Shown here piece after piece: positions 629 to 21,095 of a stretch of DNA of 64,000 bases. The position numbers and the translations under genes are program-made. This DNA is from Desulfobacterales bacterium (GTDB lineage Bacteria; Desulfobacterota; Desulfobacteria; Desulfobacterales; UBA5852): contig CAXXVS010000002.1 of the NCBI GenBank assembly GCA_963674755.2, forward strand, positions 64,001 to 128,000, read 5' to 3'. The stretch's first letter is position 1. Each line of letters begins with the position of its first letter. The notes under the pieces were generated by a model that ran no database searches, had not been told where the DNA came from, and saw nothing but the letters and a program-made list of their open reading frames with translations.

Positions 629-1576
629 TTAATATTGCTCAGGTAGGTCGGTAAGCTTACGCTCATCGAGATACCGTTCCGCCAATGCAATGTCATCTGC
701 CAGAAACGCGTAAAGCTGCCTCCGAGTGACATCAGACACCTCGCTCACATAGGCACTCTTAACCCTGTTGAAACGGTTGACGGTCTTCAAAATCCCAAAA
801 CCTCGTCCGCCTCTTAATCGGCGCAATGGATCCAACACGGGATCCGCGAGCCGGTACACTTGCAACGCCAATCGGTTCACCAAAGGGCTTGCCAGTCCGC
901 TACGCGGATTAGATACGCCGAAATCGCTACGGCCATCGTCAGGCAAGCTCAAAAAATCCAATATCTTTACATAGACCGCGCGGGGCGCGTCGCGCAGTTC
1001 ACGCAGGTGGACCACAAGAACCTGATCGCGCTCAAACAGAGCAAACAAACGATCAAGCCGCGCGCCGAGATGGGCCCAAAAGACATAATTGAGATCACCT
1101 GGCCGGGATCGCGCCGTTTCAGGTGTCGTCTCAGCAAGCTCACGCAACCAGGCCTTTGCGAAATCCGTTTCCCGCTCCCATCCTTCACGGACCTTCTGGC
1201 TATGCAGGGAAACTGCAAGGTCAACAGGGTCGCGCACGCACACGATAATACGCGGCCGCTTGCTAAGGCACCGAATTTCCCGTAAAGCCAAATCGGAATG
1301 CAAGTATTTCGGAGTCGCATCGCCTTTCGATTTGCCGACCGCAAAGGATCCGGAAAAGAGTCCGCAATAGGCTTCGAGGTCAGGGATGTGTCCACTTAGT
1401 TCTGCGGTTGGAAAGATATCCTGTGAAAAGAAACAAAGCTCTTTTCTCGGCATGAATACCGAGTCGTGCTGGCTGAGCCAATCATAAAGCGTTGTCGTTC
1501 CGCATTTAGGTGCGCCGACAATGAAAAAATCGGGAAAAGCCGCTTCTGAAATGCTATTCATTGACCGAATTGTCAC
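629..1576 (-). CDS. PAPS-dependent sulfotransferase
   Basis: 5'-PSB motif PDFFIVGAPKCGTTTLY, GDATPKY, and 3'-PB-like VRDPVDLAVS. Confidence 0.9.
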   Translation of the reverse strand: MTIRSMNSISEAAFPDFFIVGAPKCGTTTLYDWLSQHDSVFMPRKELCFFSQDIFPTAELSGHIPDLEAYCGLFSGSFAVGKSKGDATPKYLHSDLALREIRCLSKRPRIIVCVRDPVDLAVSLHSQKVREGWERETDFAKAWLRELAETTPETARSRPGDLNYVFWAHLGARLDRLFALFERDQVLVVHLRELRDAPRAVYVKILDFLSLPDDGRSDFGVSNPRSGLASPLVNRLALQVYRLADPVLDPLRRLRGGRGFGILKTVNRFNRVKSAYVSEVSDVTRRQLYAFLADDIALAERYLDERKLTDLPEQY

Positions 1577-1719
1577 CGACTTGGTAGCTGCTGAAATTCA
1601 CCATGTTTCACTCGCTTGGTCCAGTCTGTCAGCAATACAACCTTGACATAGTTGATGCCCAAATTCGTGCATGACTCGCACGTCATGTTGATACAGCAAT
1701 TCAATCATGTTCATCGTAT

Positions 1720-3117
1720 TTATTCTGATTTAGCATCAACTCGTTGTGCCTGCCACCTAGGAGCAAAGAGATCCCCTCGAAAACCTACCAGTTTTATTGT
1801 TCTATTCCAAAGAAATGTTTGAATGAAGATAGTCGTAACCACAGTTGCAACCGCAGCACCATTTGGTCCGTATAAAGGAATCAAGATGATATTTAAAATC
1901 GCGTTCAATATGGCTGAAAAACTGAGGGAAAAAGCGGTAGTTCTTTCGTTTCCACTCATATTGAGAAGGACGACTACGGCACCAACACCTGTATTGTACA
2001 GATATCCTACAGCGACAATCATTGCGACAGTATAAGCAGCGGCGAATTCTTCGCTAAACAAAATCGAGATTAGATTAGGTCCGGCGAGCCAGATCACGAT
2101 GAGCAGGGCCGCCGAAGGAAGAAACGATAATCGACAGGCCTTGACCATCAGTTCTTGAACCCGAGCCTTGTCGCCACTAGCGTAGAACCGTGCGATGCGC
2201 GGTGCGATCGAGGCATTAAGCAACGCCTGGGTCACCATCAGTAGCCCAGCAACCTTTGTTCCTACATCGTAGACAGCGACACTCGCAGAACCGGTAATTA
2301 GGCCAAGCATCGCGATATCGAGCCGGCTGTTAATCATGGCCGCGCCCGACTGCAGGGTCATGGGCCACAGGCTGTGGAGCCAAGCGCGCGTCTCGAACAA
2401 CGGGGACTGCGCGCCTTTAACGTCGATCGCTGTAAGACAGTGTGAAGCCATGGACCAGGAAAGTACTGTGGCCACCCCAGCGGCGATGACATGGAGCGTC
2501 ATCACTGTGCTCGAATTGAGGCCCAGAAGCATTGCCGCGCCGGCGACAAGCGCGAGAAACAGCAGCGGACGCGCAAAGGTGTCTGGAACATTGGCCAAAA
2601 CAACATTCTCGAAACCCGAGATGATCGCGCGATAGAGCGATAGCAGCCCAAGTAGGCAAAGCAAAACAAAAGCCGGAACGATGATACCAACCAACATCTT
2701 GGTCGGCCATCGGCCCATTGTGTCCAAAGCGATCCATGCCCCAAATCCAATAACTCCGATAGTAAGCGCGCCAAGACCCACAAATCGGAAACTCCACCGG
2801 ATGATCCCCTTGAGGTGCCGGGTATCTCCGTTACTACGATAGATGGCCACTTGTCGCATGACCAGGGTCGGCAATCCCATCTGTAGCGGCATGCCAAGAA
2901 TAAAGACCCAGCCGAGCGCGAAGGTGTAGACTCCATAACCCTCCGTGCCGAGCACCCGTGCCAGCAACACGGTGGATGCGAGGCCGATCGCCATACTGAT
3001 GGCACGCATACCGCCCATGCCCATGCCGCTGCGCAAGAGCCACGAGGTTTCTCCGTGCGAGTTACCAGTTTTCAGGAATGCGCCAATCATAGACAGCAAG
3101 TCCGCATTGCCAAACAC
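1720..3117 (-). CDS. wzx: Oligosaccharide flippase (Wzx/MurJ-like polysaccharide exporter)
   Basis: LARVLGTEGYGVY, RLDIAMLG and LNIILIPLYGPNGAAVAT motifs; many transmembrane segments. Confidence 0.85.
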   Translation of the reverse strand: MFGNADLLSMIGAFLKTGNSHGETSWLLRSGMGMGGMRAISMAIGLASTVLLARVLGTEGYGVYTFALGWVFILGMPLQMGLPTLVMRQVAIYRSNGDTRHLKGIIRWSFRFVGLGALTIGVIGFGAWIALDTMGRWPTKMLVGIIVPAFVLLCLLGLLSLYRAIISGFENVVLANVPDTFARPLLFLALVAGAAMLLGLNSSTVMTLHVIAAGVATVLSWSMASHCLTAIDVKGAQSPLFETRAWLHSLWPMTLQSGAAMINSRLDIAMLGLITGSASVAVYDVGTKVAGLLMVTQALLNASIAPRIARFYASGDKARVQELMVKACRLSFLPSAALLIVIWLAGPNLISILFSEEFAAAYTVAMIVAVGYLYNTGVGAVVVLLNMSGNERTTAFSLSFSAILNAILNIILIPLYGPNGAAVATVVTTIFIQTFLWNRTIKLVGFRGDLFAPRWQAQRVDAKSE

Positions 3118-3149
3118 AGGTTCGCAGTCACGTAGCGTTCCAAAACACT

Positions 3150-4286
3150 TTACCCACGAACTGCACCTAACTCAATAGACCCTGCAGTCGCCGATATTGA
3201 TCGCAATTCTCGGTATTTCGAAATCAACTGATCGGCCCTATGGTCATAGGAACAATCGGATAGCAGCATCCTCCGCCGTCCGGCTTCAGCAATGGACGCT
3301 CTTTCCTTATCGTGTAATAGGAAATACTGAATTTTGTTAATCATATCATCCTGATCGACGAAAAACGCACATTCCTCGCCATCGGCGAAATAATGCGTTG
3401 CAAGCTCATTTCGCTCGTGCAACATGAAACCGCCAGTCGCTGGAATCTCGAAAGTGCGCGCGGTGATGAGATCCCCCGCTGGCGCCCATGGCGTTCCCTC
3501 GAAAAGCAGACCAAGATTGATTTTCGCTCCCAGAATGGCCTTTGCATATTCCTGTCCCCAGACAGGGGTATCCTGGTAAACAGACCGAACTCGCGGGCGG
3601 GACCTGCTCCAGCCATTGGGACCCCAGATCTTCACGGAAATTTCCGGCAGCGCCTCCAACAAATGAGCAATTTCCCCTTCCTTCTTTCTCGAAATATTTC
3701 CAATGAAAACAACGTCACAACCGTAGCGCGAATGATCCAGTTCCGTCAGCGTGACAGGAACGTGCACCTCTGGATCGTAGGCGTGACTCACAAAGGTAAT
3801 ATTGGTATAAGCATATCGTTCCCGGAGAAAATCCATGTGCGCAGGCTTTGTCGTGAATACCCAATCATAAAGCGTGATCGCTTTGGCAGCTTGCCCATCG
3901 AAGCCCGTATCAGGATAAAAATTGATTGATACCGCTCCGCTTGCGCGCAGCGTCCGCAGTGTCTCTGGCGTAACGCTATCACCCTTAAATGCGAAGAAAA
4001 GGTCCGGTTCAAAGCCGCGCATGGCAGCAATCAGAGCGCGGTTATACTCGGTAATCATAGCGGGCGCCATGAGACGCCGCACGGCTCGCAACCAACGGGT
4101 CTCCCAACGTGGAAGGTGACTTTCCGGCGGCACAACAAGTACTGAATGACCGGCTCGCCTTAACGCACGGATAAAGCTGTAATCGTTCCCACCATGGCGG
4201 ATGTTACAAGCCGCAAGAATCCGTAAGGGTCCTATATTCGAGCACTCTTCGAGTACGTTGGCTTGTGTTGCTTTGCTTAGTTCCAT
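3150..4286 (-). CDS. Glycosyltransferase (CgeB / Glyco_trans_1_2-like)
   Basis: DVVFIG, AKINLG, RTFEIPATGGFML and IAEAGRRR motifs. Confidence 0.85.
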   Translation of the reverse strand: MELSKATQANVLEECSNIGPLRILAACNIRHGGNDYSFIRALRRAGHSVLVVPPESHLPRWETRWLRAVRRLMAPAMITEYNRALIAAMRGFEPDLFFAFKGDSVTPETLRTLRASGAVSINFYPDTGFDGQAAKAITLYDWVFTTKPAHMDFLRERYAYTNITFVSHAYDPEVHVPVTLTELDHSRYGCDVVFIGNISRKKEGEIAHLLEALPEISVKIWGPNGWSRSRPRVRSVYQDTPVWGQEYAKAILGAKINLGLLFEGTPWAPAGDLITARTFEIPATGGFMLHERNELATHYFADGEECAFFVDQDDMINKIQYFLLHDKERASIAEAGRRRMLLSDCSYDHRADQLISKYRELRSISATAGSIELGAVRG

Positions 4287-4864
4287 CCCACATGATCCAT
4301 GAGTGGCGATGCCTCACGAACGAAAACAAGATCCATTTGCGTCAGTGTTCTGTCGTAAGGCCTCTGGACGTAGCTATCAATGTCGTAGATGCAAAAGCCG
4401 AGACCACCGAGAAATGCGATGACTTCTTGAGCAAGTGGATTTCCTTCATAGATGCGTTGCGTAGAGACCTCCACAAGGATAATCGTAGTAAATTCAAGCG
4501 TGTGTCCTGCCCCCCCCCCCCCCCCCCCCCCCGCGCGCAGGACTTCGCGCTCATGGCCCTGCACGTCCAGCTTGAGAAGCACACACGGCACGTCAGAGAG
4601 CTCCGTAAGCACCTCACGTAGTACATCATCACATGTCCGAACAGGCACCATGACTGGAGAGCCAACAAACGTTGGACTTTTTAGAAAAACGGAAACCGGT
4701 CTTTTTCAGTCTCTCAACACAGAGTGCGGTTTTCAGCCCTTCACTGAGCAGAAGAGATGAAAAACAAGCAATAGTGAGGCATTCCTATATATCCAACTGT
4801 CGTATCCAAGTATGGCTCGAACCCAACCGCGCACGATTTCAGTGATGTTTATCTTCCGAATCAC
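4277..4864 (-). pseudogene. Disrupted FkbM-family methyltransferase
   Basis: The C-terminal part (4277-4651) has VRTCDDV, LLKLDVQGHEREVL, ILVEVS and QMDLVF. An SD (AAGGAG) plus GTG at 4864 opens a frame that stops at about 4733. The SAM-binding DVGAN-type segment is not found in any frame. A 23-nt G run (minus strand) lies at 4510-4532. Confidence 0.6.
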
Positions 4865-4894
4865 TCTATGCTCTTCTCCTTTAGAACACCATAT

Positions 4895-6163
4895 CTACCA
4901 TAGAGAGAACACGCTCATACCTCGCCCACGCTTGGTACAAGTATCAACGCAGACATGACGCCCATCATACGACCACTTTGGATGCAAGTCGGCACGATAA
5001 CCGGTCGCCCGTACCGCGGAATCACTCGCAATTATTACTTCATCCAGAGGCTTGCGCTGCTCGACATCAAACAGGTAGAGGCGACAATTGCCTTCCTCGT
5101 CGGGGTATGTGTCGTTGATGATTGTAGTTGTGCTTCCCGGGCAAAATGTCGGATGTCCGTCCTCCGGCAGGATACTACGGTCTATTCGGTCGCGATCTCC
5201 GGTTTGGTCTGTAAATGACTGAAAACAGTCGCCGGTCACCTTGCGGGAAATCGCACCTCCAGGCGGGAACAATTTATGGTAAAGGGGAAGAAGTGGCTTT
5301 ATAAGGTTTTTGGCAATAGTCTTTTGTCCACGCAGTTTATTGAGCGTGGTACTGGTCCCGCCGTATCCGAACACGGTTCGATCGTCCCGCCAGCAGTAAT
5401 GACTCATACGTCCACTGTCGTTCAGCATGAACAGATTACGACCATCCGTGTCGGCGGTCAGCATGCGCGCATAGATACCCCCATCGACATTTAGCCAGCG
5501 GTGCAGGAAGACGAAACGGGAGTTGGCAGGATTGATCATCATATGCTCGAGATAATGAACTCCCGCATACATCGAGCTGACTCGCCCAATTTTCATCACA
5601 TCGCCGATAGCGATAATGCGCTCGAACGAGCCGTCGGCAAGTGACATCCTCCAGATACCATCCTCGGGATCGAACGGCTTCTTTTTCTCCAGGCGCGGTG
5701 TGCCTTGATAGTTATATCCTGGGCGGTACCAGAATAACCGATCGTAGTCGATCGAGAGCGCGTACTGACCATCACTGGTGATGGTGTAGGCTGGCATGGG
5801 CAGTACGGTTTCAGCGCCTGTCGCAATATCAAGCACAATTGCTCGGTAGTGGCCATCGCGGATGTCATTGTAGAGGACCCGACTACTAAAATCCGGTCCG
5901 AGCCACTGCAGCATCGAACCTTGCTGCCAGTTCCAGGAGCGCGTTTCGGCAATCGGCGTGAAGTCTCGGCCACCTGGAAATTCGAAGTATCCGATCGCGA
6001 TTGCCTCTCCAGCCTCGGGCATGCGGTTGATGAACGGCGTACGTTGCGCAAGTAGACGGTTGTTGTCGGCATTCAGGGGCGATTTGTCGTAGTAGCCAAA
6101 AAAATAATCGCCATCAGGAGGAGTTTCGTAGATCTGGTTTAACGTAATTGGAGTAGCGCTCAT
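4895..6163 (-). CDS. Conserved beta-propeller protein of polysaccharide clusters (TolB/oligogalacturonate-lyase-like)
   Basis: YFFGYYDKSP, WNWQQGSMLQW, DGHPT and DLHPKWS motifs; 4-nt overlap with the upstream glycosyltransferase. Confidence 0.65.
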   Translation of the reverse strand: MSATPITLNQIYETPPDGDYFFGYYDKSPLNADNNRLLAQRTPFINRMPEAGEAIAIGYFEFPGGRDFTPIAETRSWNWQQGSMLQWLGPDFSSRVLYNDIRDGHYRAIVLDIATGAETVLPMPAYTITSDGQYALSIDYDRLFWYRPGYNYQGTPRLEKKKPFDPEDGIWRMSLADGSFERIIAIGDVMKIGRVSSMYAGVHYLEHMMINPANSRFVFLHRWLNVDGGIYARMLTADTDGRNLFMLNDSGRMSHYCWRDDRTVFGYGGTSTTLNKLRGQKTIAKNLIKPLLPLYHKLFPPGGAISRKVTGDCFQSFTDQTGDRDRIDRSILPEDGHPTFCPGSTTTIINDTYPDEEGNCRLYLFDVEQRKPLDEVIIASDSAVRATGYRADLHPKWSYDGRHVCVDTCTKRGRGMSVFSLW

Positions 6164-7428: not shown

Positions 7429-7547
7429 GAGAGACTTTTCCTATAGAAAAAGAATGCGGCATGATTGAGTTGGAGGCGCTTGCTCTTAACAGGTTCTTCA
7501 AGAAAAACGATTGAAAAACGGCCAGTCTGTCACACACAAGGATTTTC

Positions 7548-9422
7548 CTACCACTCACCGGTTCCTGCATAGTTCCAAACAGAGTAAGCCCACCGCCTCG
7601 CCCATCGGCACTTTGGCTTTGCAAGTTTTTCAATCGTCTTCCAGGCTTGGGAGCGCTCGTCGGATTTCAGCCATTCAGCGATTGGAGTCGAGAAGCCCGT
7701 CTTTGCCCGATTGGTTACAGGTGCTGGCAGGGGTTGCACCGGTGCCGATGCGAGGAGCGATTTCCCCTTATTCTGCGCAAAACCGGAGACAAGTGCGGGG
7801 GATGTCTCTTCGAGAAGTATCTTGTCTACGAGTGGCACCCTGACCTCGAGCGAATGGGCCATGCTCGCCCAATCCGAATCGCGAAGCAACTGGTTCCGCA
7901 TGTAGAGCTCCGCTTCGAGTGCCGCGACTTTGCCGAATGGCGAGCGCGGCCCATCGCTTAATAAATCGGAGATCAGAGCAATCGGTTGTAACTCCCGTAG
8001 GCCGGCGGCAACGAACTCGGGCTCTAAAATAGCGTCGAGTTCGTCCGGCATGAAGACCCCTCTACGTACAAGATAAGCACCGGGATAGGTGCCGCCGTAG
8101 GTAAGTAGAGCGGCGATCTTCGGGTCGATGGCCTCGCCACTCAGCCGCTGCGCTCCCATGATCAGAGGCGCCAGCCAGGAGGTTCCGTCGTGGCGTATAC
8201 CCATTCGACCTAGAATGCTGACCGATCGTGGGACGTCGCGAAACGCTGGATAGCCGCCGAACAGTTCATCGCCACCCAGTCCGGAAATCGCCACCTTGAG
8301 TCCGAGTTCGTGTGCGGCCTTGCTGACGAACCAGGTGTTAAGGCCGTCGATGGTCGGCTGATCCATCGCGTCGAGTATTTTTGACAAATCTTCAAGGAAT
8401 TCTTTCCGAGAAACGCCTCTGCTCGTGTGACTGGCACCGTAACGACGGGCGATTTCCGCTGCCAGTGGTGCCTCGTCGTCATGTCTACCCTGAAATTCCT
8501 CGAAGTAGAGCGTTACGGTGTTGATTTCATGATCAGTCGCATCGCGCATCAAGCCAAGCAGGGCGCCAGAATCGATCCCCGCCGATAGAAACAGCCCCAC
8601 GGGGACGTCGGCCACCAGGTGATGGCGGACGCTGTCGGCGAGGCTGCGGCGGACCGTCTCGGTTACAAGCTCATCGTCCGGCTTTTCCCCTTTAGAAGCT
8701 GCTTCATTCGACCGAATTTCGGCCTGGGCAATTAAGTGACTGATCGAGCAATAGGGCATAATGCGCGGGTTGTCATTTGCCTCGACGATCATTGTTGTTC
8801 CTGCGGGCAATGCACGGATGGCGCGGCACCAGGTGAATGGCTCTGGTACCGAGCCGAACAAATAGAAACCGACGACGCCCGCCGGATCCACATCCTTCGC
8901 GATTTCTCCTCCGGCCAACAGCGACTTGACTTGGGATGCGAAGGTGATGCCTTTCGCGCTGTCGACGTAGTAGAGTGGCTTGATGCCGTAAGGATCGCGC
9001 GCGAGCATTAAGCGGCGTTTTTGGCGCTCGAATATCGCGAAGGCGAACATGCCTCGCAATCGCTCGACCATTGCGGGTCCATAAGCGTCGTAGAGATGCA
9101 ACAGGACTTCCGTGTCTGAGGTTGTTCTGAAGACATACCCACGCGCAATAAGGCCATCTCGGAGGATTTGGTAGTTATAGATTTCTCCATTGAATGTGAC
9201 GACCAGTCGCCCATCCGGCGTTTGCATCGGCTGTGATGCGCGCTCGGAAACATCGATGATCGAAAGCCGCCGATGCACAAAGCCGACGGACGCTTCCGTC
9301 TCTTCGATCCAAAGTCCATCACCGTCGGGCCCACGGCGGGACATGTGTTGCGAAATTGCCGCGAGTTCGATTTCGTTGACGCGTCCGCCCGCGTATCGGA
9401 ATTGACCACCGATCCCGCACAT
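7548..9422 (-). CDS. asnB: Asparagine synthase (glutamine-hydrolysing)-like amidotransferase, probably for sugar amidation
   Basis: N-terminal MCGIGG with catalytic Cys2; RGPD, HRRLSIID, FNGEIYN, LSAGIDS, SGLGGDELFGGY, SLEVRVP. Confidence 0.92.
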   Translation of the reverse strand: MCGIGGQFRYAGGRVNEIELAAISQHMSRRGPDGDGLWIEETEASVGFVHRRLSIIDVSERASQPMQTPDGRLVVTFNGEIYNYQILRDGLIARGYVFRTTSDTEVLLHLYDAYGPAMVERLRGMFAFAIFERQKRRLMLARDPYGIKPLYYVDSAKGITFASQVKSLLAGGEIAKDVDPAGVVGFYLFGSVPEPFTWCRAIRALPAGTTMIVEANDNPRIMPYCSISHLIAQAEIRSNEAASKGEKPDDELVTETVRRSLADSVRHHLVADVPVGLFLSAGIDSGALLGLMRDATDHEINTVTLYFEEFQGRHDDEAPLAAEIARRYGASHTSRGVSRKEFLEDLSKILDAMDQPTIDGLNTWFVSKAAHELGLKVAISGLGGDELFGGYPAFRDVPRSVSILGRMGIRHDGTSWLAPLIMGAQRLSGEAIDPKIAALLTYGGTYPGAYLVRRGVFMPDELDAILEPEFVAAGLRELQPIALISDLLSDGPRSPFGKVAALEAELYMRNQLLRDSDWASMAHSLEVRVPLVDKILLEETSPALVSGFAQNKGKSLLASAPVQPLPAPVTNRAKTGFSTPIAEWLKSDERSQAWKTIEKLAKPKCRWARRWAYSVWNYAGTGEW

Positions 9423-10510
9423 CAGCCAAGCACCTCAATCAATCGATTCTTGAATGCGCTGTACCGGAATTCCGCTTGCCAGCGTTCCTGGCCAGCGCGG
9501 CCCATATTGCTTGAGCGATCCGGGTTTCCCAGCAGGTCGATCAAGCGCTCTTCCAAAGCGTCTTTGCTGTTGAGGTCGATGTTGTAACCAGTGACTCCAT
9601 CAAGATTAACCTCTTGTCCGGCGTCGTGAACCGATGCAATAACGGGTATTCCATGACGCATTGCTTCGATATACACCAGCCCAAAACCTTCACCACGCGA
9701 GGGCATTGCAAAAACGTGTGCCTGTGACCATACTTGCGCTAACTCGGCCTCGCTCAAAAAGCCTTTGACATCGATATTCGTTGAGGCACTCGAATTTGCC
9801 GCATGCGTGATGATTGAGTCTTTCCCTGTTCCACTGCCGACAATGACGAGTCGGGCGTCTGGAACAGCAGAAACGATTTTTGGCCAGACCTCGATGATTT
9901 CGCGATGTCCCTTATACAGGTTACCGTCATCCATGCGCGCAACGATCAACGCGGTTGGTGGTCCGCTAAACGTTGCGGGCATTGAGGATGGTTTGTCCTC
10001 CTCGGTCCCCAACTGGCAGACTCGAGCCTGTTGTAGCGTACCATGCTTTTCTTCGAACCTGGCAAGCGTGTAGCTCGAGTTTGACAACACAAGGCCGGCG
10101 CGCCGTAGTACGTTTTTACGCTCCGTAGAAAGATCGCCCCAAACCTCAATTCCATGTATCCACACAACGTATGACCGTTTAAAACCCGGCAATCGCGGAT
10201 GGGCGCGTGCTGTGCCCAGAAAGTCGTAGATAAAACCGCCATGGGTTATTGCCGCCGCATGGCAATGTGCCAAAAAACGTACTTTACTTCCGTATGCCCT
10301 ACTCGCGACTCTACCAGCTACTTCAACCGGCGCCTCGTCGGATAAGGACAGAAGTGAAACATCCACCCCTGTCTCGATTAGCGCGCGCGCTGTGTTTCTC
10401 GCCACGCGGGCGATGCCACCCAGACCGGGGGTAAACAGTGCCGCAGCAACATGGATTTTCTGCGTGAGTGGTACGAATGCAGGGACGCTATTCACATTTT
10501 CACATTCCAT
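9422..10510 (-). CDS. GT4-family glycosyltransferase
   Basis: GGIARV, HGIEVW, YKGH and EGFGLVYIEAM motifs; TGATG overlap with asnB. Confidence 0.9.
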   Translation of the reverse strand: MECENVNSVPAFVPLTQKIHVAAALFTPGLGGIARVARNTARALIETGVDVSLLSLSDEAPVEVAGRVASRAYGSKVRFLAHCHAAAITHGGFIYDFLGTARAHPRLPGFKRSYVVWIHGIEVWGDLSTERKNVLRRAGLVLSNSSYTLARFEEKHGTLQQARVCQLGTEEDKPSSMPATFSGPPTALIVARMDDGNLYKGHREIIEVWPKIVSAVPDARLVIVGSGTGKDSIITHAANSSASTNIDVKGFLSEAELAQVWSQAHVFAMPSRGEGFGLVYIEAMRHGIPVIASVHDAGQEVNLDGVTGYNIDLNSKDALEERLIDLLGNPDRSSNMGRAGQERWQAEFRYSAFKNRLIEVLG

Positions 10511-11369
10511 CTATCCATTCAGTTATTTCATGTTGCACTTCCGGCAGCAGGGAATAGTTTCTTGGATAGCAGAGACTGTATGCCGGCAGGTGTTGCGTCA
10601 TATCTGCCATGCTGTCGAACAGGGCTATATTTTTTTTCTGATCCGTTACATCGAGTTGGAATGATTGTTTTATCAGGTTCATCAAGGCGGTTTGTTTGCT
10701 GATCGGCGAAATGTTTATTTGGCTGTTGTTCTTGCAAGCATCTCGATCTTCAAGAATGAAGACAGCCTTTAGCGGAAGCACCGTATTGATGGTCTCGCTG
10801 CCGGAGGTGAGCCGTTTTTTGGATGAATAGTATGCCATCGGCGCTAGTGCGGGGGCGGTTGCAAAAAGCGCTTCCAAGGAATCCGGCCAAAGCCTTGGGC
10901 CTGCGTCGAATGGCGTCAGCGTCACATGCCGGTTTTCCAGGTTGAGCTGGATGCAGTCGTCGGCCAGCAAGGGCGTTCCCTGCTGATGAAAGGCAGCGGC
11001 CAGGGTCGATTTGCCGTAGCCTGTCTCACCGATGAAGGCCACGGCTTGATCATCGATGGACACGGCGCTGGCGTGGACCATGATATGGCCCTGGTGGCTC
11101 AAGATCCGCGGCAGGACCTGGTCCCCAAAATAGTGGTCGATGGTGTCCTGGGTCGCATCGGACGCCGGATGGCACACAATATCCAGGCCGTTTTCTGAAA
11201 CGAGAAAGTCGGTCTGGTCCGGGAACCTCAGGAGATAGCCGAAGGCGGAGCGGGCCAGGGAGAGGGTGATTTCGCCATCGGGCAATTTCCAGTGGTGGAT
11301 CCAGCGATGGTTCCCATCGCCGGATAATCTTGTATTTTTAATGTTGAATTTTAAATTGGGGGGAATCAA
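10500..11369 (-). CDS. HPr-kinase-like lasso peptide kinase (PadeK/ThcoK/PsmK type)
   Basis: HASAV...FIGETGYGKSTLAA (Walker A) and LLADDCI; located next to the precursors. The TTG start is uncertain. Confidence 0.8.
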   Translation of the reverse strand: MIPPNLKFNIKNTRLSGDGNHRWIHHWKLPDGEITLSLARSAFGYLLRFPDQTDFLVSENGLDIVCHPASDATQDTIDHYFGDQVLPRILSHQGHIMVHASAVSIDDQAVAFIGETGYGKSTLAAAFHQQGTPLLADDCIQLNLENRHVTLTPFDAGPRLWPDSLEALFATAPALAPMAYYSSKKRLTSGSETINTVLPLKAVFILEDRDACKNNSQINISPISKQTALMNLIKQSFQLDVTDQKKNIALFDSMADMTQHLPAYSLCYPRNYSLLPEVQHEITEWIDGM

Positions 11370-11552
11370 TAGAAGCTATATTTGAATACAGTATGTTGAA
11401 TTCTGAATTGCCGGAAAAAACCCTTAATAAGTTTGAGTTATGGGTATATAAATTCATACTTTATGAAGCGGTGTTAGTGGTATTAATTTACTGCGTTCCC
11501 CCGAGTGGTGATGCTATCGCGGTCAGCGAACTTTTTTGGGATACGACAACGA

Positions 11553-11717
11553 TCAGGAACGTCTACCCGGATCATCCCGATGCCACCAACCTTCACGCCA
11601 TCCCCTTGATCCAGCGGCGGTCAATTCGCGGATGTTGCCATACTCTCTTAGAGATGGGCTTTGGTACGTTTTCTTAAGTTCCTCGTTTGACAATATTTTT
11701 CCTTCGGCGATTTTCAT
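11553..11717 (-). CDS. Lasso peptide precursor A2 (54 aa): MKIAEGKILSNEELKKTYQSPSLREYGNIRELTA|AGSRGWREGWWHRDDPGRRS
   Basis: Manual translation. Leader has YxxPxL (YQSPSL), the conserved G, and Thr at -2. Core has Glu8 and a C-terminal Ser. An alternative in-frame ATG lies at 11729. Confidence 0.9.
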   Translation of the reverse strand: MKIAEGKILSNEELKKTYQSPSLREYGNIRELTAAGSRGWREGWWHRDDPGRRS

Positions 11718-11803
11718 TTTTAAACCCATCTTTTATTGTTGGATACGGGGTTATGAGTTTTGAACGTGGAGTGATGTGTTTGAGATTGCCAGCAAGTTTT
11801 AGC

Positions 11804-11959
11804 TCAGGGGTACCGATGCCTTTGCTGTGGCCAGTTTTCTGGTTTTCGGCCTGAGCCGCCGGCGGTCAGGTCGCAGATGCGACCGTATTCCCTTAGCTCC
11901 GGCGGTCGGTAGTTCTTTTTAGGGCGGGTTTTCTTATTGGCGGTTATGTTGTCGGTCAT
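11804..11959 (-). CDS. Lasso peptide precursor A1 (51 aa): MTDNITANKKTRPKKNYRPPELREYGRICDLTA|GGSGRKPENWPQQRHRYP
   Basis: Manual translation. Leader has YRPPEL, the conserved G, and Thr at -2. Core has Gly1 and Glu8. Homologous to A2 (LREYGxIxxLTA). Confidence 0.9.
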   Translation of the reverse strand: MTDNITANKKTRPKKNYRPPELREYGRICDLTAGGSGRKPENWPQQRHRYP

Positions 11960-12112
11960 ATGCACAAATCGTTCTGAGGCTGCGGACGTCGCGTTATTAT
12001 CTTCCGTTATGATGGCGAATGATTACTAATTATCTTTTTGCCATTCGTAGTACCTAAGCAGGCGTTGTGTCAAATGATTACTTTTTCGGGCATCGGGCAT
12101 CAAATGCGTCAT

Positions 12113-14032
12113 TCAGCCCTCATAATTGTGGTCCTTCCATGCGATAAGCGCTGCGGCTTCCCACACGTATTGTCGATCGTTGTCCGAGGCGGCGCCGTTT
12201 TGGAAATTTTGGTTGGCCTGGCGGATTTTGGGTTCATCCACGTAGTCGCTGACTTCGGAAAGATCTTGCGTGATGGTCCGGTTCAGGTGGGTCTTGTGGC
12301 TGTTCATCAGGGCGGTGATGAATTGCCAACCCAAATGGTTTTTGTCGGTGCGAAAACAGACGTCCCGCGGCAGGTAGCGGGACATGGATCGGCGCAGGAG
12401 GTATTTCGACCACCCCCGGCGGTCTTTCTGGTCCAGGGGCAGGGAGAGGTAAAATTCCACCAAACGCCGGTCGGTGTATGGGCAGCGAGGTTCGATGCCG
12501 AACCGGGCCGCGACGCGGTCGTAGCGTTCCAGGCCCACGGTCAAGTAAGGATGGAGCAACTTTTGCGCGTGGGCCTGGATCGGGTCTTTGACCAGGCCGA
12601 TGGGGTGATGGCGCCGCAGCTGGTGGAGGCGGTCTTCGAGGCCGATCCGTTGGGCGAACTCCGGACGGATGGCCGACTCTTTCATGGCCTCACAGTAGTC
12701 GTTGCCGGCCGGCCAAAAACGGCGTTTGACCTTGCGCAGGCGGTCCGTGACAAATGCGGCCCGGGCATTGGCGTGGAGCAGGTGCCAGGGGGAATCATAC
12801 GCCCCGGCCGTGGTGTCTTTCCGGAAGGCGTCGGCCAGCACCGCGAGCCAGCGGCCCTGCCTGAGAAGGTAGGCCAAGTAGTCGGTGCCGTAAGAGCAAA
12901 GGTTGTCCCCGGCCACGCCGTCAAGCAGGGTTTTGCAGCCCTGCGCCCGGGCGGCACCGTACAGGGCGCCCGGCAGGACCATGAAGATGTCGAAAGGATT
13001 GTCCGTCGGCGCCACGGCCTGTCCGAGGTCCTCGAAAAAGGGGCCGGGTTGATTTACGGCAACCAGGTGCGATGTCTGGGTGCCGCTGTCGATGACGCGC
13101 CGGATGAAATGGGTCTCCGGGCAGGTGATGCGATCCGGCGTCACGGCGGAAAAGGTTTGCAGGCGCGTCCGGCCGGTCTGGTTTAGGATGTTGCGGCCAA
13201 TGGCCACCACCGCCGAGGAATCCATGCCGCCACTGAGCATGGAGGCCGGAGGGGTGGGGCTGCGCAGGCGGCAGCGAACGGCCTGGGTGAAAATTTCCAG
13301 AAAGGCTTCGGTGTATTGGGCGTCGGACGGCAAGAACGTTTTTTTAGTGACGTCGGGTTCCCAATAAGTCTGGGTGCGCAGGCCGTTGCGGTCCACGGTG
13401 ATCCAGCAGGCCGGCGGCAGACGATGGATGTTGGCGGAAAAGGTGCTCGTTTTGTCGATGCCCTCCAACTCGGAGACCAGAAAATCGGCGATGCGCCCTT
13501 CGTTGATCCGCAAGGGTACGGCGGGCAGGGCCCGCAAGGCGTTTTCTTCCGAGGCCAGGGCAAAGAGCCTGTTGGGCTGGTGGTGGTAATAAATCGGTTT
13601 GACCCCCAGGGCGTCCCGGGCGGCAAAGAGGCGCTGTTGGGTGCCGTCCCAGATGACAAAGGCGAAATCACCGATGAGTCTCAAGGGGGCGGCCGTGCCC
13701 CAGCACCGGTAGGCCTCGATGATCAGTTCGCCATCGCCCATGGGGGCCGCAGCGCCGGCGGCCAGGCCGAGGTTGCGAATCAATTCGTCGCGGTTGTCGA
13801 TGCGGGCATCGGCGATGATGGTCATCGGGGATAGCGAGTGGGTCAGGGGCATGTGTTCGGTGAGGGATTCCGGGGTCGTAAAAAGGGCGCCCCAGGCCAG
13901 GCCCACGGGCCCGCTGATCCAGGCGGCGCTGCCGTCCGGTCCTCGATGCGCCTGCATGTCGAGCATGAGCTGGAGATCGGCGGTCGATGCGGGCTTGTCG
14001 TTCAGGTGATATATGCCGGCGATGGCTGCCAT
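12113..14032 (-). CDS. Lasso peptide cyclase (C protein, asparagine-synthase fold)
   Basis: Starts MAAIAG and so lacks the glutaminase Cys; HRGPDG, DARIDNR, GDFAF, LSGGMDSS, DGVAGD, EPRCPYTDRRLVE. The track start at 14041 lies inside a repeat end, so 14032 is preferred. Confidence 0.9.
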   Translation of the reverse strand: MAAIAGIYHLNDKPASTADLQLMLDMQAHRGPDGSAAWISGPVGLAWGALFTTPESLTEHMPLTHSLSPMTIIADARIDNRDELIRNLGLAAGAAAPMGDGELIIEAYRCWGTAAPLRLIGDFAFVIWDGTQQRLFAARDALGVKPIYYHHQPNRLFALASEENALRALPAVPLRINEGRIADFLVSELEGIDKTSTFSANIHRLPPACWITVDRNGLRTQTYWEPDVTKKTFLPSDAQYTEAFLEIFTQAVRCRLRSPTPPASMLSGGMDSSAVVAIGRNILNQTGRTRLQTFSAVTPDRITCPETHFIRRVIDSGTQTSHLVAVNQPGPFFEDLGQAVAPTDNPFDIFMVLPGALYGAARAQGCKTLLDGVAGDNLCSYGTDYLAYLLRQGRWLAVLADAFRKDTTAGAYDSPWHLLHANARAAFVTDRLRKVKRRFWPAGNDYCEAMKESAIRPEFAQRIGLEDRLHQLRRHHPIGLVKDPIQAHAQKLLHPYLTVGLERYDRVAARFGIEPRCPYTDRRLVEFYLSLPLDQKDRRGWSKYLLRRSMSRYLPRDVCFRTDKNHLGWQFITALMNSHKTHLNRTITQDLSEVSDYVDEPKIRQANQNFQNGAASDNDRQYVWEAAALIAWKDHNYEG

Positions 14033-14033
14033 A

Positions 14034-14224
14034 GTGTCCATCCAGAAAGGGCATCTTTTAGCCCCTGGCGGCGTTCTCGCCTCCTGTCGGTCCTCGGCGT
14101 AGCCAAGCTACGCCTGTGGGCACCCACCGTTGAAGAATCAATCAGATGGGAAGTCCCGCTCAGCGGGACGCCAGTCGGCTGCGGCCTTGCCAGGAACCAA
14201 AATCTACCCTTTCTGGACGGACAC
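14034..14224. repeat. MITE/REPIN-like element, family A, copy 1
   Basis: Terminal inverted repeats gtgtccatccagaaaggg / ccctttctggacggacac (1 mismatch); internal hairpin gcgtagccaagctacgc. Confidence 0.85.
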
Positions 14225-14228
14225 TTTT

Positions 14229-14471
14229 GCTTATCCAAAAAAAGCATCTTTTAGCCCCTGGCGGCGTTCTCGCTTCCTGTCGGTCCTCGGCGTAGCCAAG
14301 CTACGCCTGTGGGCACCCACCGTTGAAGAATCAATCAGATGGGAAGTCCCGCTCAGCGGGACGCCTGTCGGCTGCGGTTTGTTGAACACCGATGTTTTTG
14401 AAGATCAGACGTGAAATCCCGCGCTGTGCTGCGGGACCGGGAACCAAAACCTACCATCTCCGGACGGACAC
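14229..14471. repeat. MITE/REPIN-like element, family A, copy 2 (tandem with copy 1, with an extra insert)
   Basis: About 130 nt nearly identical to copy 1; ends ggacggacac-TA; overlaps the 3' end of the B2 gene. Confidence 0.85.
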
Positions 14472-14955
14472 TATTCAAAAGCAAAGCGAATTTTATCCGG
14501 ACGTCCGGGTTCTCATGCAAGGGTTGGCCCTGGTATTCGACCCAGGCGTGGGCTTGAATGGTGCGGCTGTTTTTTTGGACCCCGATGCAAATGTCGCTGT
14601 CGATGCACTGACGGCGCAGCAGGCTCCAGAGGGTCAGGGAACGGGGCAGGCAGTTGGCGCGGCCGAGCCGGGTTTGAGCGGCCCGGTGGACCATTTGGGC
14701 TGCGGTCTGGGCGATATTGTCCGCGTTGGCTTGTCTTCCCCAAGGTGCTGTCTGTCGGCCGGTGACCCACGTTAGCAGATGGTGGAGCCTTTGGTAGCCC
14801 AGGGTTTTCAAACCGATCCTTACCAGGGGAAGGCTTACAAGAGCCTGGAGGAAGAACCGTTTTTCCTGGCAGGAAAGGGATTGGAATAATGACGGCCCTC
14901 TAAAAAGTCCGACCCGCCGCGATAAAGGCGGATGAATATCTGCGTTACGCTTCAT
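14353..14955 (-). CDS. Lasso peptide leader peptidase B2 (transglutaminase-like)
   Basis: NCLPRSL (Cys), CIGV and AHAWVE (His) motifs. Both termini lie within repeat elements. Confidence 0.88.
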   Translation of the reverse strand: MKRNADIHPPLSRRVGLFRGPSLFQSLSCQEKRFFLQALVSLPLVRIGLKTLGYQRLHHLLTWVTGRQTAPWGRQANADNIAQTAAQMVHRAAQTRLGRANCLPRSLTLWSLLRRQCIDSDICIGVQKNSRTIQAHAWVEYQGQPLHENPDVRIKFALLLNSVRPEMVGFGSRSRSTARDFTSDLQKHRCSTNRSRQASR

Positions 14956-15040: not shown

Positions 15041-15065
15041 TGGATTTCGACTGGTCAGGAAGCCA

Positions 15066-15332
15066 TCAGGATGACCTGGCCTGTATGAGGCCTTTTTCCA
15101 GCAGCTTTGCGATGAGCTGCTCCAGGTCTGATTTCAGGGTGTCGGGGTCCACGTCGTATTGTTCAAGCAGCGATGCGAAGGCCGCTTCGACGGTCTGGCC
15201 GGAGGTGAGGGCATTGATCATGCGGGTGCCGACTTCGTCCAGACCGAAGTACATTTCCGAATCGAGATTGAGAAGGACCGCTTCCCCGTCCAACTCCCTG
15301 ATTTTTACGTAGTCCGGAAGATCGTATTTCAT
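15066..15332 (-). CDS. RiPP recognition element, lasso B1 / PqqD family (88 aa)
   Basis: MKYDLPDYVKIRELDGEAVLLNLDSEMYFGLDEVGTRM...YDVDPDTLKSDL...LLEKGLI is a typical PqqD pattern. Confidence 0.9.
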   Translation of the reverse strand: MKYDLPDYVKIRELDGEAVLLNLDSEMYFGLDEVGTRMINALTSGQTVEAAFASLLEQYDVDPDTLKSDLEQLIAKLLEKGLIQARSS

Positions 15333-15358
15333 GTCAGAGATCAATTGGTTTTTCGCTT

Positions 15359-16573: not shown

Positions 16574-16613
16574 GTTGGGGGGACTATGAATCCGTTCTTC
16601 TCAATTTTAGATA

Positions 16614-16790
16614 GTGCCTATCCATAAATGAAATGCATTTTTTGGCCCCTGCCGGTGTTCTCTGGGGCTGCGCCTGTGGGCGCCCGTCGGCTGAGGTTTG
16701 TTGAACACGGATGTGACCAAAAATCAGACGTGAAATCCCGCGTTCCGCGGTGGGACCGGAAGCCAGAATCTATCATCGCTGGATCGGCAC
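16614..16790. repeat. MITE/REPIN-like element, family A, copy 3 (degenerate)
   Basis: TA-gtgcc...ggcac-TA; shares the gttgaacac..atcagacgtgaaatcccgcg insert with copy 2; supplies the ABC gene's stop codon. Confidence 0.8.
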
Positions 16791-18650
16791 TATATAGTTG
16801 GCTGGGTTTGTCGATGCTGTTGATTCTTGGTTGTATTGGGCTCGCCAGGACCAGGCGTAGCGGCCATCGAGGGATATCAATTGTTCGTGGGTGCCGGACT
16901 CGGTTATGCGGCCGGCGCCCATGACGTGGATGATGTCGGCGTGCATGGCGGTGGTGAAGCTGTGTGTGATCACCAGGGCGGTTCGCCCCCGGGTAAGGGT
17001 GCGGAATCGGGCCAGCCAGTCAGCCTGGGCCCAGGAATCCATGAAACTGGTCGGCTCGTCCAGGACGATGATGGGCGATCGGCGCAGGAAGGCCCGGGCC
17101 AGGGCTATCCGCCGCCATTCGCCGGCGCTCAGGTCGGTGCCGCCGTCGAACCATTTCCCCAAACGCGTGTTGCCGCCGTCAGGCAGGCGTTGAACGATCT
17201 CTTCCGCGCCTGCGGCGGCAATCGCGTCGTTGAGGTCGTGCGGGCCGGGGACCGTCTGCACGCTGCCCATGGCGACGTTTTCAACTAAAGAAGCGTTGAA
17301 GCGAATAGGCTCTTGGAAGAGGACGCTTATCTGGCGCCGCAGGTCGGCGATAGCGAATTCCCGGATGTCGATGTCGTTGATGCGAATGGTCCCGGACTGG
17401 GGATCGTAGAACCGGCAGAGCAGTTTGAGCAAGGTGGTTTTGCCGGCGCCGTTGGGCCCCACGATGGCGGCTGTCTGGCCGGCGTGGATATGCAGATCCA
17501 GCTCTTCCAGTGCCGGGCGGTCGGTGCCGGGGTATCGAAAGCTTATATGGTCGAAACGAATGGCGTAGCGCTGTCGGTGGGGCATCGGTGCCGGTCGGGC
17601 AGGGTCCTTCATTCCAGGTGTCATATCCAGAAATTCGAAGAGGTTCCCCAGGAACAGGCTGTTGGAATAGAGTTCCCCCACATTGGCAAGCAGGGTCCGC
17701 ATGAGGCGCTGGCCCTGGCTGAAGGCCTGGTAGATAAGGGCCAAGTCGCCGAGGGTGTGTCGGCCGCGGGCGGTTTGCCATACCATCCAGATCATGGCCA
17801 GGCCGGTGATCAGCATAGCGGCCAGGGCGGCGCCGAATTCGGCCAGGCTGCGCCGTTTGATTAATTGGGTGAGCCGGTTGCGCAAGGTGCGGCGTACGTT
17901 CTGATAAAGGGATTTGAAACGGTCACCCAGGTCGAACAGGCGCAGTTCGGCGGCGGTTTCCCGGTCGGTGAGCAGCCAGTCATAGTACCAGCCCCGACGG
18001 CGATGGGCGGTGGATTCCAGCTGCCATTGGTGCATGAGCAGGCGGTGGTGAAGGACCACGTAAAGGGCCGGCAGGGTGCTGATAATGAGTGCGATGGGCA
18101 GCAGCCAGCCGTAGGAAAGCAGCACCCCGGCCATGGCTATGGCCGTAATGGCGGTTTGCAGCAGGCTGCCGAGGTTTTCCAGCAGGGCCACAGGGCGGTG
18201 GCCGGCGTCGTTGCGGGCCCGGTGCAGATGGTCGAAAAAATCAGGGGATTCGTAAAACGCCATGTCCACAGCCATCGATTGTTCGTGGACCAGACCGGCG
18301 ATGTAATCTTTGACCCGCTCGCCTTGAACGGTCCGCACCCAGTTGGTAAAGCCGCGCAGCAATTCGCCGAACAGCATGAGCCCGGCCATGAGCGCCACCC
18401 AGATCAGTACCGGTGTCGCCGCGGCGATGCTGACATCATTGCCGATCAGGTCGACCAGGCCGTTGACCAGAGCCCGGGTCAAGTAGACCGTGGCAACAGG
18501 CAAAAGGCCCTGGAGGACGAGCAACGTGATCCAGCCCAGCGTCCATTTCCCCGTTGCGGCACGGACCAGGGCGAAGGTGCGGGGGAGGAAGCGGAGTTGG
18601 TTGCGGAAGCGGCTCAGCCTGTCTTTTATTATGGGCAGGAGAGGGGGCAA
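16773..18650 (-). CDS. ABC exporter, fused permease and ATPase (lasso D type)
   Basis: Six-TM-like N-terminal domain; GPNGAGKTT, LSAGEWRR signature, IIVLDEPT. Confidence 0.88.
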   Translation of the reverse strand: MPPLLPIIKDRLSRFRNQLRFLPRTFALVRAATGKWTLGWITLLVLQGLLPVATVYLTRALVNGLVDLIGNDVSIAAATPVLIWVALMAGLMLFGELLRGFTNWVRTVQGERVKDYIAGLVHEQSMAVDMAFYESPDFFDHLHRARNDAGHRPVALLENLGSLLQTAITAIAMAGVLLSYGWLLPIALIISTLPALYVVLHHRLLMHQWQLESTAHRRRGWYYDWLLTDRETAAELRLFDLGDRFKSLYQNVRRTLRNRLTQLIKRRSLAEFGAALAAMLITGLAMIWMVWQTARGRHTLGDLALIYQAFSQGQRLMRTLLANVGELYSNSLFLGNLFEFLDMTPGMKDPARPAPMPHRQRYAIRFDHISFRYPGTDRPALEELDLHIHAGQTAAIVGPNGAGKTTLLKLLCRFYDPQSGTIRINDIDIREFAIADLRRQISVLFQEPIRFNASLVENVAMGSVQTVPGPHDLNDAIAAAGAEEIVQRLPDGGNTRLGKWFDGGTDLSAGEWRRIALARAFLRRSPIIVLDEPTSFMDSWAQADWLARFRTLTRGRTALVITHSFTTAMHADIIHVMGAGRITESGTHEQLISLDGRYAWSWRAQYNQESTASTNPANYIVPIQR

Positions 18651-21025: not shown

Positions 21026-21095
21026 AGTGGTTTTGGCCTTAAGGAACGATGTGGTCAAACCTATCACCTTGCGGCAAGGATGGCGTCAGCCGTGA

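What the first reader, a model, noticed from the sequence alone, without database searches (positions are those of the whole stretch)
629..18650. Lasso peptide cluster joined to a sulfated-glycan assembly line: candidate phospho-glyco-lassopeptide system
Seen: all genes are on one strand in the order ABC exporter, nucleotidyltransferase, RRE, B2, cyclase, A1, A2, kinase, GT4, AsnB, GT4, propeller protein, FkbM remnant, GT, flippase, sulfotransferase, Wzy-like. The kinase stop overlaps the GT4 start (10500-10510) and the GT4 stop overlaps the asnB start (TGATG, 9420-9424), so there is no break between the two modules. Established: in paeninodin/pseudomycoidin-type clusters an HPr-like kinase phosphorylates the C-terminal Ser, and a nucleotidyltransferase has been linked to glycosylation of that phosphate. 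Inferred: the peptide could be a primer, anchor or decoration for a larger amidated and sulfated glycan, that is an envelope/biofilm role rather than an antibiotic one, in an anaerobe. Simple co-transcription with an unrelated EPS locus is equally possible.
Basis: partly seen in the sequence, partly recalled or inferred. Interest (0 to 1): 0.85.

Follow-up and report, generated by a model that had tools for sequence, protein, structure and literature searches.

The report
Lasso peptides heading a polysaccharide locus
A sulfate-reducing bacterium carries intact genes that likely make two knotted, phosphate-tagged peptides at the front of its slime-polysaccharide gene cluster; such neighbours recur in many bacteria, but the sugar genes next door look separately acquired and probably build the slime rather than decorate the peptides.

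Summary
Gene order and overlaps are real. The lasso cassette is intact (cyclase, B2, RRE, kinase, nucleotidyltransferase, ABC exporter, two precursors). It resembles the Ser3-phosphorylating Bsf/LPP type more than the C-terminal-Ser paeninodin type: both cores have Ser3, only A2 ends in Ser. The glycan genes are the variable middle of a full Wzx/Wzy exopolysaccharide locus that runs 20 kb past the window and has its own priming transferase, Wzc and Wza. At the kinase-GT4 junction codon usage turns foreign. None of 15 cassette genes has an orthologue at 116 other loci. A sister genome has the same chassis with other glycan genes and a cyclase-less kinase/nucleotidyltransferase cassette. The link to polysaccharide loci in general is strong: 22 of 41 cyclase windows hold two or more such genes, against 1 of 41 recA windows of the same genomes. 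It is in print for Bacilli (PMC13381572), and this scan noted it before on other DNA. So: no dedicated sulfated-glycan line, but a real, unexplained peptide-EPS coupling. New member of a known kind; interest 0.4.

The parts
16773..18650 (-). MsbA-like ABC exporter (D)
   Evidence: PF00005, PF00664; host-like codon usage, 64th percentile
16607..16812 (.). Host repeat element (REP-like), up to 31 hits in the genome
15359..16573 (-). PsmN/BsfN-type nucleotidyltransferase (N); invariant K100-G101 and D119-x-D121; ANT(2'')/LnuA/MenT-like fold
   Evidence: PF14907; alignment of 40; model pLDDT 84; fold searches
15066..15332 (-). Discrete RRE (B1, PqqD family); likely start ATG 15332
   Evidence: PF05402 59.4 bits; sequence
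14353..14955 (-). Leader peptidase B2; last ~40 codons run into a repeat
   Evidence: NF033537 90.2 bits, cut-off 33
14024..14479 (.). Host repeat element (REP-like, internally duplicated), up to 85 hits in the genome
12113..14041 (-). Lasso cyclase (C); lacks the N-terminal Cys that AsnB has
   Evidence: NF033535 581.5 bits, cut-off 525; translation
11804..11959 (-). Precursor A1: Tyr-17, Pro-14, Leu-12, Thr-2; predicted core GGSGRKPENWPQQRHRYP (Gly1-Glu8 ring, Ser3, no C-terminal Ser)
11553..11717 (-). Precursor A2: same leader motif; predicted core AGSRGWREGWWHRDDPGRRS (Ala1-Glu8 ring, Ser3 and C-terminal Ser)
10500..11369 (-). HprK-like peptide kinase (K); H99-G114-G117-G119-K120-S121-D137-D138, same spacing as BsfK
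   Evidence: PMC10368454 section 23
9422..10510 (-). GT4, first gene of the foreign-signature glycan block; the five homologues with an organism name are Alphaproteobacteria
   Evidence: (0.3rd percentile)
7548..9422 (-). AsnB-type glutamine amidotransferase with N-terminal Cys (not a second cyclase)
   Evidence: TIGR01536 375 bits; NF033535 only 165 bits
6160..7428 (-). GT4
   Evidence: PF00534
4895..6163 (-).
   Evidence: no hit
4277..4850 (-). Broken FkbM methyltransferase gene with a 23-nt G run (4510-4532); an intact FkbM gene lies beyond the window
3150..4286 (-). Glycosyltransferase-like (PF13524)
1720..3117 (-). Wzx flippase
   Evidence: PF01943 59.7 bits
629..1576 (-). Sulfotransferase
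   Evidence: PF00685, PF13469
1..622 (-). 5' part of a 539-aa membrane protein (Wzy-like by position only). Beyond the window, same strand: two methyltransferases, FkbM, GT4, carbamoyltransferase, two GT2, WecA-like priming transferase, Wzy_C ligase, CpsB/CapC, TPR protein, Wzc, ExeA-like ATPase; Wza on the other strand
20036..21067 (-). galE, upstream part of the conserved EPS chassis (shared with sister genome G004)
   Evidence: TIGR01179 445 bits

Best explanation
An intact lasso-peptide cassette that likely makes two knotted peptides phosphorylated on ring Ser3 sits at the head of a Wzx/Wzy exopolysaccharide locus, whose foreign-looking sugar-gene block likely builds an ordinary lipid-linked repeat unit and probably does not act on the peptides. 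Steps: RRE binds the YxxPxL leader (motif shown, binding inferred); the kinase phosphorylates Ser3 of the precursor (inferred from BsfK and LppK); B2 cuts after Thr-2/Ala-1 and C closes Gly1/Ala1 to Glu8 (inferred from family membership); N adds a nucleotide or hexose to that phosphate (inferred from PsmN; chemistry open); D exports. Separately, the WecA-like enzyme primes on undecaprenyl phosphate, the GTs, AsnB, sulfo-, carbamoyl- and methyltransferases build and decorate the unit, and Wzx, Wzy, Wzc and Wza export it (established pathway, applied by inference). The cassette is tied to the EPS chassis and is probably co-expressed with it as a matrix or envelope accessory, whichever sugar block is present.
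For: Ser3 in both cores, C-terminal Ser only in A2. In the kinase's 14-row clade (SH-aLRT 99, quick tree) 12 of 18 precursors have Ser/Thr3, 18 of 18 have Ser/Thr in positions 2-5, 1 of 18 ends in Ser. Ser3 is the shown site for BsfK and LppK. Codon fit to host: six lasso genes at percentiles 7.7-73.5, 14 of 15 block genes at 3.1 or below, one at 8.6; chassis genes 44.6-96.5; tetranucleotide score drops over the same span. Host repeats lie in the lasso cassette, none in the block. 0 of 15 block genes have a hit of 40% identity over 60% length in 116 other loci. Own initiator and export genes. Sister genome G004 keeps the chassis at 81-95% DNA identity with other glycan genes and another kinase/NTase cassette. 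Enrichment 22/41 versus 1/41; own-genome background 14 of 335 tiles. Synchronous up-regulation of lasso and eps genes reported in Paenibacillus.
Against: No chemistry or expression was measured. A2 does end in Ser, and the proteobacterial SyanK modifies a C-terminal Ser (PMC9266682). BsfK was not compared by sequence; both precursors have Thr-2, not the Bsf Ile-2. The tree is the quick version, not the finished search. Coupling is far from universal: 19 of 59 long loci had no labelled glycan gene, and in an independent same-phylum set 4 of 6 long loci had none. Kinase (12.5) and B2 (7.7) are the least host-like lasso genes. Foreign origin of a GT does not prove that it cannot act on a peptide. 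G004 has a contig gap inside the locus and 6% contamination.
Confidence: 0.6

Rival explanations
1. Hitch-hiking. EPS loci are hot spots of gene traffic; the cassette makes a diffusible (for example antimicrobial or signalling) phospho-lasso peptide and has no functional tie to the polysaccharide.
For: Patchy occurrence: cyclase in 0 of 12 same-genus genomes and 9 of 401 same-phylum genomes. The island is absent at this site in G001, G005, G010. Both cores are cationic (+3, +2). GT genes are all on the opposite strand at 9 of 25 loci. The recA control is a housekeeping neighbourhood, not another mobile cassette.
Against: Enrichment appears in seven phyla. The sister genome holds an unrelated kinase/NTase/RRE cassette in the same island. 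In 5 of 20 same-class NTase loci the priming transferase lies between NTase and kinase (likely kin). Pseudomycoidin producers inhibited none of three test strains.
Confidence: 0.18
2. Peptide-polysaccharide conjugate. K phosphorylates Ser3, N activates or transfers the peptidyl phosphate, and the peptide ends up joined through a phosphodiester to a sugar of whatever repeat unit the locus makes, as a decoration or anchor.
For: N has an NMP-transferase fold (ANT(2'') Z 13.1, rmsd 3.3, 166 aligned; LnuA Z 11.8; FKRP Z 8.6), not a GT fold. PsmN gives peptide-phosphate-hexose(1-2). LppN was inactive in a heterologous host and its authors suspect an outside partner; native products were not detected. 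NTase-positive loci have two or more glycan genes in 25 of 39 cases against 7 of 20 without. PF14907 is in 53 of 151 same-class genomes, 9 of 20 fetched loci in glycan clusters.
Against: No conjugate has been shown in any paper I read. A shared fold shows no function. 10 of 26 complete cassettes have fewer than two glycan genes within about 10 kb. The cassette keeps its own ABC exporter, which suits a free peptide. Bsf is bordered by unrelated genes.
Confidence: 0.15
3. First reader's model. The adjacent GT4s, AsnB and sulfotransferase are dedicated tailoring enzymes that grow an amidated, sulfated glycan on the phosphorylated C-terminal Ser of the lasso peptide.
For: Same strand, no gap at the junction, no terminator-like or promoter-like site there (counts overall at chance level). 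A GT that glycosylates a mature lasso peptide exists (IgtG).
Against: Compositional break at the junction; no orthologues at other lasso loci; Wzx and sulfotransferase together at 1 of 59 loci; no labelled GT follows the kinase in 60 cases, 14 next genes being unlabelled; A1 lacks a C-terminal Ser; the locus has a lipid-carrier initiator; a related kinase end in run X3 runs on into unlike DNA at 10512 (record 4, depth 2, weak).
Confidence: 0.07

Closest known systems
bsf lasso cluster of Bradymonas sediminis FA350 (BsfA/B1/B2/C/D/K/N; PMC10368454)
   Same: Same seven-function gene set; YxxPxL leader; Ser3 in the ring; kinase motif with identical spacing; Gram-negative deltaproteobacterial-type host; role of N unknown.
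   Different: Thr-2 here, Ile-2 in BsfA; Glu8 here, Asp8 in BsfA; two precursors; bsf is bordered by an FG-GAP protein and ribosomal genes, not an EPS locus. No direct sequence comparison was possible.
Paeninodin / pseudomycoidin clusters (PadeK, PsmK, PsmN; PMC6993621; pba in PMC13381572)
   Same: HprK-like kinase, NTP_transf_5 protein with DxD, split B, ABC exporter; reported to lie often in capsular polysaccharide loci of Bacilli.
   Different: Those phosphorylate a C-terminal Ser and use WxxP leaders; here YxxP, only one of two cores ends in Ser, and the kinase falls outside the Bacillota clade.
Linear polyphosphorylated peptides (lppAKBSDN; PMC13381572)
   Same: Ser3 phosphorylation, YxxP leader, kinase + NTase + RRE + MsbA-like exporter, position in polysaccharide loci, function open.
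   Different: LPPs lack cyclase and B2 and use a SipW-like peptidase; this cluster has both C and B2.
Wzx/Wzy-dependent EPS/capsule loci with a variable central cassette
   Same: Priming transferase, GTs, Wzx, Wzc, CpsB/CapC, Wza, ligase-like Wzy_C protein; low-GC variable middle that differs between sister genomes (pattern recalled from general knowledge; shown here for G000 and G004).
   Different: A RiPP cassette stands at the 5' edge; Wzy identity unconfirmed.
Davasins / IgtG (PMC11912497)
   Same: Shows that a GT can glycosylate a mature lasso peptide on Ser.
   Different: IgtG is described as the sole GT of its lasso cluster; here the GTs belong to a flippase-bearing block.

Membership tests
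Lasso peptide BGC | Macrolactam cyclase (C) | tested here: met
   NF033535 581.5 bits, cut-off 525
Lasso peptide BGC | B2 peptidase and RRE | tested here: met
   NF033537 90.2/33; PF05402 59.4/23.4
Lasso peptide BGC | Precursor with Y-17/P-14/L-12, Thr-2, small residue 1, Asp/Glu at 7-9 | tested here: met
   A1 and A2; spacing as in PMC10368454 section 22
Lasso peptide BGC | Threaded product actually made | not testable with these tools
   needs MS/NMR
Paeninodin/pseudomycoidin type | HprK-like kinase with His-Lys-Asp-Asp motif, PsmN-like NTase with DxD | tested here: met
   PMC6993621
Paeninodin/pseudomycoidin type | C-terminal Ser in the precursor(s) | tested here: not met
   A1 ends in Pro; A2 ends in Ser; 1 of 18 in the kinase clade
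Paeninodin/pseudomycoidin type | WxxP leader motif; Bacillota clade | tested here: not met
   both leaders YxxP; kinase apart from the 10 Bacillota rows (quick tree); PMC13381572 section 12
Bsf type | A, B1, B2, C, D, K, N gene set and Ser3 in the core | tested here: met
Bsf type | Ile/Val at leader position -2 | tested here: not met
   Thr-2 in both
Bsf type | Kinase in one clade with BsfK; Ser3 phosphorylation shown | not tested
   no tool returned BsfK; only motif spacing compared
LPP | No cyclase or B2; SipW-like peptidase | tested here: not met
   C and B2 present
Wzx/Wzy EPS locus | Priming phosphoglycosyltransferase, Wzx, Wzc, Wza | tested here: met
   PF00953 130 bits; PF01943; TIGR01007 173.8/108.05; TIGR03028 155.8, below its cut-off, and clustered with a PF02563 protein
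Wzx/Wzy EPS locus | Wzy polymerase | tested here: inconclusive
   539-aa membrane protein without family hit; a separate PF04932 Wzy_C protein is present
IgtG-type lasso glycosylation | IgtG-like GT as sole GT of the cluster | not tested
   IgtG sequence not available; architecture differs

The most novel reading that the evidence does not exclude
The kinase + nucleotidyltransferase + RRE module is a general device for fixing peptides to bacterial exopolysaccharide: Ser3 is phosphorylated, the ANT-fold enzyme activates or hands on the peptidyl phosphate, and a lasso (or, in the sister genome, a Tat-leader) peptide becomes a phosphodiester-linked substituent of the repeat unit, whatever sugar block the locus carries. 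This would be a RiPP-polysaccharide conjugate class spread over many phyla, and would explain why native products have been missed by MS.
Probability: 0.15. Interest if true: 0.85.

Novelty: new member of a known kind. Interest (0 to 1): 0.4.

Why it matters
The role of phosphorylated lasso peptides and of their nucleotidyltransferase is stated to be open (PMC13381572, PMC10368454). This locus extends the lasso-EPS co-location from Bacilli to a sulfate reducer, puts a number on it across phyla, and offers a natural contrast: two sister genomes with one EPS chassis, two sugar blocks and two unrelated peptide cassettes. It also corrects the search target, from a C-terminal sulfated glycan to a Ser3 phosphate and what N puts on it. 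As a single cluster it is an uncharacterised member of a known type.

Tried and rejected
No RNA holder listed, so co-transcription was not testable. Promoter and terminator counts were at chance level (12 vs 12.1; 25 vs 22.2). Metagenome scans for close kinase relatives gave nothing usable (none; one 1.3-kb contig). Precursor homologue search found no candidate. GT4 9422-10510 had no match in plasmids or in 401 genomes of the class of G059, so the block's native context was not seen; an empty answer shows nothing. DNA of window 1-10600 was not found in 5 same-genus genomes (no positive control). PDB sequence searches with the NTase gave no significant relative. The 422-aa protein stayed without a family. 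The JBC paeninodin paper was not held; I cite it only through reviews. AsnB as a second cyclase: rejected (N-terminal Cys, NF033535 165 of 525). Assembly chimera at the junction: rejected. B2-family hits in G001, G005, G009 are short matches in ~500-aa frames, not taken as lasso B2. No complex prediction was run.
Full report
Observation. The window is G000:C2:64001-128000 of a 6.7-Mb genome that has dsrA above cut-off, so the host is likely a sulfate or sulfite reducer. The cyclase passes NF033535 (581.5 bits, cut-off 525), B2 passes NF033537 and the RRE passes PF05402. The kinase/GT4 overlap (11 nt from ATG 10510; a GTG at 10495 is an alternative start) and the TGATG overlap are as described. 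One contig of the likely source run spans 4544-14090 without a difference, and a contig from a second study bridges the junction. Two labels, 'propeller' and 'Wzy-like', have no family support. The FkbM gene is broken and holds a 23-nt G run.

The glycan genes are part of a larger, self-sufficient locus. Beyond base 1 the genome continues with methyltransferases, GT4, a carbamoyltransferase, two GT2, a WecA-like priming transferase (PF00953), a Wzy_C protein, CpsB/CapC, a TPR protein, Wzc, an ExeA-like ATPase and a Wza-like export protein. Such a locus starts its repeat unit on a lipid carrier (established knowledge), so it needs no peptide primer.

The junction is a seam. Against 1508 long host ORFs, the six lasso enzyme genes score at percentiles 7.7-73.5 for codon fit, the chassis genes at 44.6-96.5, and 14 of the 15 genes from GT4 (10510) to the last GT2 at 3.1 or below, one at 8.6. 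A tetranucleotide score is low over the same 18.5 kb. Host repeats with up to 85 and 31 genomic hits lie inside the lasso cassette, none in the block. Of 120 listed homologues of the first GT4, the five with an organism name are Alphaproteobacteria (class assignment recalled). None of the 15 block genes has a hit of 40% identity over 60% length in 116 other loci. In run X3 a contig 87% like the kinase end runs on for about 535 unlike letters from 10512 (depth 2: a weak hint).

Relatives. The cyclase was found in 0 of 12 same-genus genomes and 2 of 40 relatives. G004 (98% complete, 6% contamination) shares the chassis on both sides at about 81-95% DNA identity but has lower-GC, different glycan genes up to a contig gap. 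Between its PilZ gene and galE stands another cassette: an NTase, two short peptides with an RRxFL stretch and a YxxP motif, and an RRE-kinase fusion, with no cyclase. G001, G005 and G010 lack the island at this site.

Neighbourhood survey. 80 cyclase loci were fetched; ORFs were clustered and 99 cluster representatives plus 277 singletons of 190 aa or more were scanned with Pfam; shorter singletons were not. Of the 59 loci of 15 kb or more (21 shorter ones dropped), 40 have one or more glycan genes, 32 two or more, 29 three or more; sulfotransferases occur at 3, Wzx at 5, both at 1. At the 25 loci with GTs they are all on the cyclase strand in 10, all opposite in 9, mixed in 6; no labelled GT follows a kinase in 60 cases (14 next genes unlabelled). 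For a matched control I submitted 47 of the 59 genomes, 42 had recA, and 41 pairs were usable. With 4-fold cross-validated profiles, 22 of 41 cyclase windows and 1 of 41 recA windows held two or more polysaccharide genes (28 and 7 for one or more); positives fall in seven phyla. The sign test (p 6e-6) overstates: kin are not independent, five control windows are shorter, the profiles were trained on lasso neighbours, and recA is a housekeeping site. Tiling the own genome gave 14 of 335. Against a tight link: in an independent same-phylum set (9 of 401 genomes with NF033535, G000 included) only 2 of 6 loci of 14 kb or more had two or more glycan genes and 4 had none; one of the two, L143, has NTase, ABC, RRE, B2, C, kinase directly before Wza, Wzc, CpsB, Wzy_C. 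PF14907 is far commoner, 53 of 151 same-class genomes; of 20 loci fetched (chosen for long contigs) 9 have two or more glycan genes and 5 have the priming transferase between NTase and kinase.

Which serine. Both cores have Ser3; A1 ends in Pro. The kinase has the BsfK motif at identical spacing. In a quick tree of 71 kinases (careful search unfinished) it groups with Acidobacteriota, Chloroflexota and Pseudomonadota rows (14 rows, SH-aLRT 99), apart from the 10 Bacillota rows. In that clade 12 of 18 precursors have Ser/Thr3 and only A2 ends in Ser; over all 38 parsed precursors the counts are 17 and 5. BsfK and LppK phosphorylate Ser3. I infer Ser3 as the main site; A2's last Ser remains possible, as SyanK of Sphingobium uses a C-terminal Ser.

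The nucleotidyltransferase. It keeps the DxD of PsmN. The model (pLDDT 84) matches MenT1 (Z 15.7, rmsd 2.8, 180 aligned), ANT(2'') (13.1, 3.3, 166), LnuA (11.8) and FKRP (8.6) over residues 70-293: an NMP-transferase fold, which shows no function but leaves room for activation of the peptidyl phosphate rather than plain glycosylation.

What is known. PMC13381572 (abstract, passages, sections 6, 7, 12 read; supplements not) reports paeninodin-like and LPP clusters embedded in capsular polysaccharide loci of Bacilli, synchronous up-regulation with an eps gene, undetected native products, an inactive LppN, and an untested biofilm role. PMC10368454 (passages, sections 22, 23) describes bsf. PMC6993621 (passages, section 9) describes PsmK and PsmN. 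PMC11912497 (abstract, section 9), PMC9266682 and PMC13352647 (passages) were also seen. Nine searches listed no paper on this link outside Bacilli or in sulfate reducers; the library lacks most subscription papers, and the supplements of PMC13381572 and PMC10368454, not read, may bear on this. Earlier notes of this scan describe lasso or cyclase-less kinase/NTase cassettes in EPS loci of other genomes; they are leads, not support.

Verdict. Shown: intact cassette, its position, the seam, the enrichment, the sister-genome swap. Inferred: Ser3 phosphorylation, action of N, co-expression, a matrix role. A dedicated sulfated-glycan line on the peptide is unlikely (0.07). Best reading 0.6, hitch-hiking 0.18, peptide-EPS conjugate 0.15. 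New member of a known kind; interest 0.4.

Noticed in passing
L131:7798-11191 (G004:C24): Cyclase-less cassette at the head of the sister genome's EPS island: NTase, two peptides with a Tat-like RRxFL stretch, a YxxP motif and a Ser 18 residues after the Tyr, Cys-containing tails, and an RRE-kinase fusion.
   Followed up: partly
L158, L159, L163, L165, L169: Priming glycosyltransferase (Bac_transf) lies between NTase and kinase in cyclase-less RRE cassettes; L158 and L165 carry Cys-containing peptides with a W-x-x-P leader.
   Followed up: partly
window 14024-14479 and 16607-16812: Genome-wide repeat elements (up to 85 and 31 hits), also abundant in same-genus genomes; one extends the B2 reading frame.
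   Followed up: partly
window 4510-4532: 23-nt G run inside the broken FkbM gene; contigs break there, so it may be a slippage site or a sequencing artefact.
   Followed up: partly
L015, L023, L025, L031, L039, L040, L041, L046, L053, L060, L063, L078: A PRMT-like methyltransferase recurs in 12 lasso loci, ten of them in the window kinase's clade; the window lacks it.
   Followed up: no
L070:997-2556: NTP_transf_5 domain fused to a GT2 domain beside a lasso cluster.
   Followed up: no
L006, L008, L012: Cyanobacterial lasso cassettes directly behind a priming transferase and an exosortase gene on the same strand.
   Followed up: no
L033, L034, L047, L055: Kinase/NTase lasso cassettes in Methanobacterium, two of them beside GT2 and GT28 genes.
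   Followed up: no
G000:C1 about 848-868 kb: A second, exosortase-bearing EPS locus with two AsnB genes and a Wzc-like protein; G000:C3:1371496-1372614 is another HprK-like protein.
   Followed up: no
G000:C3 about 1790584-1791355: A stretch of very long G/C homopolymer runs (up to 124 nt), probably an assembly artefact.
   Followed up: no
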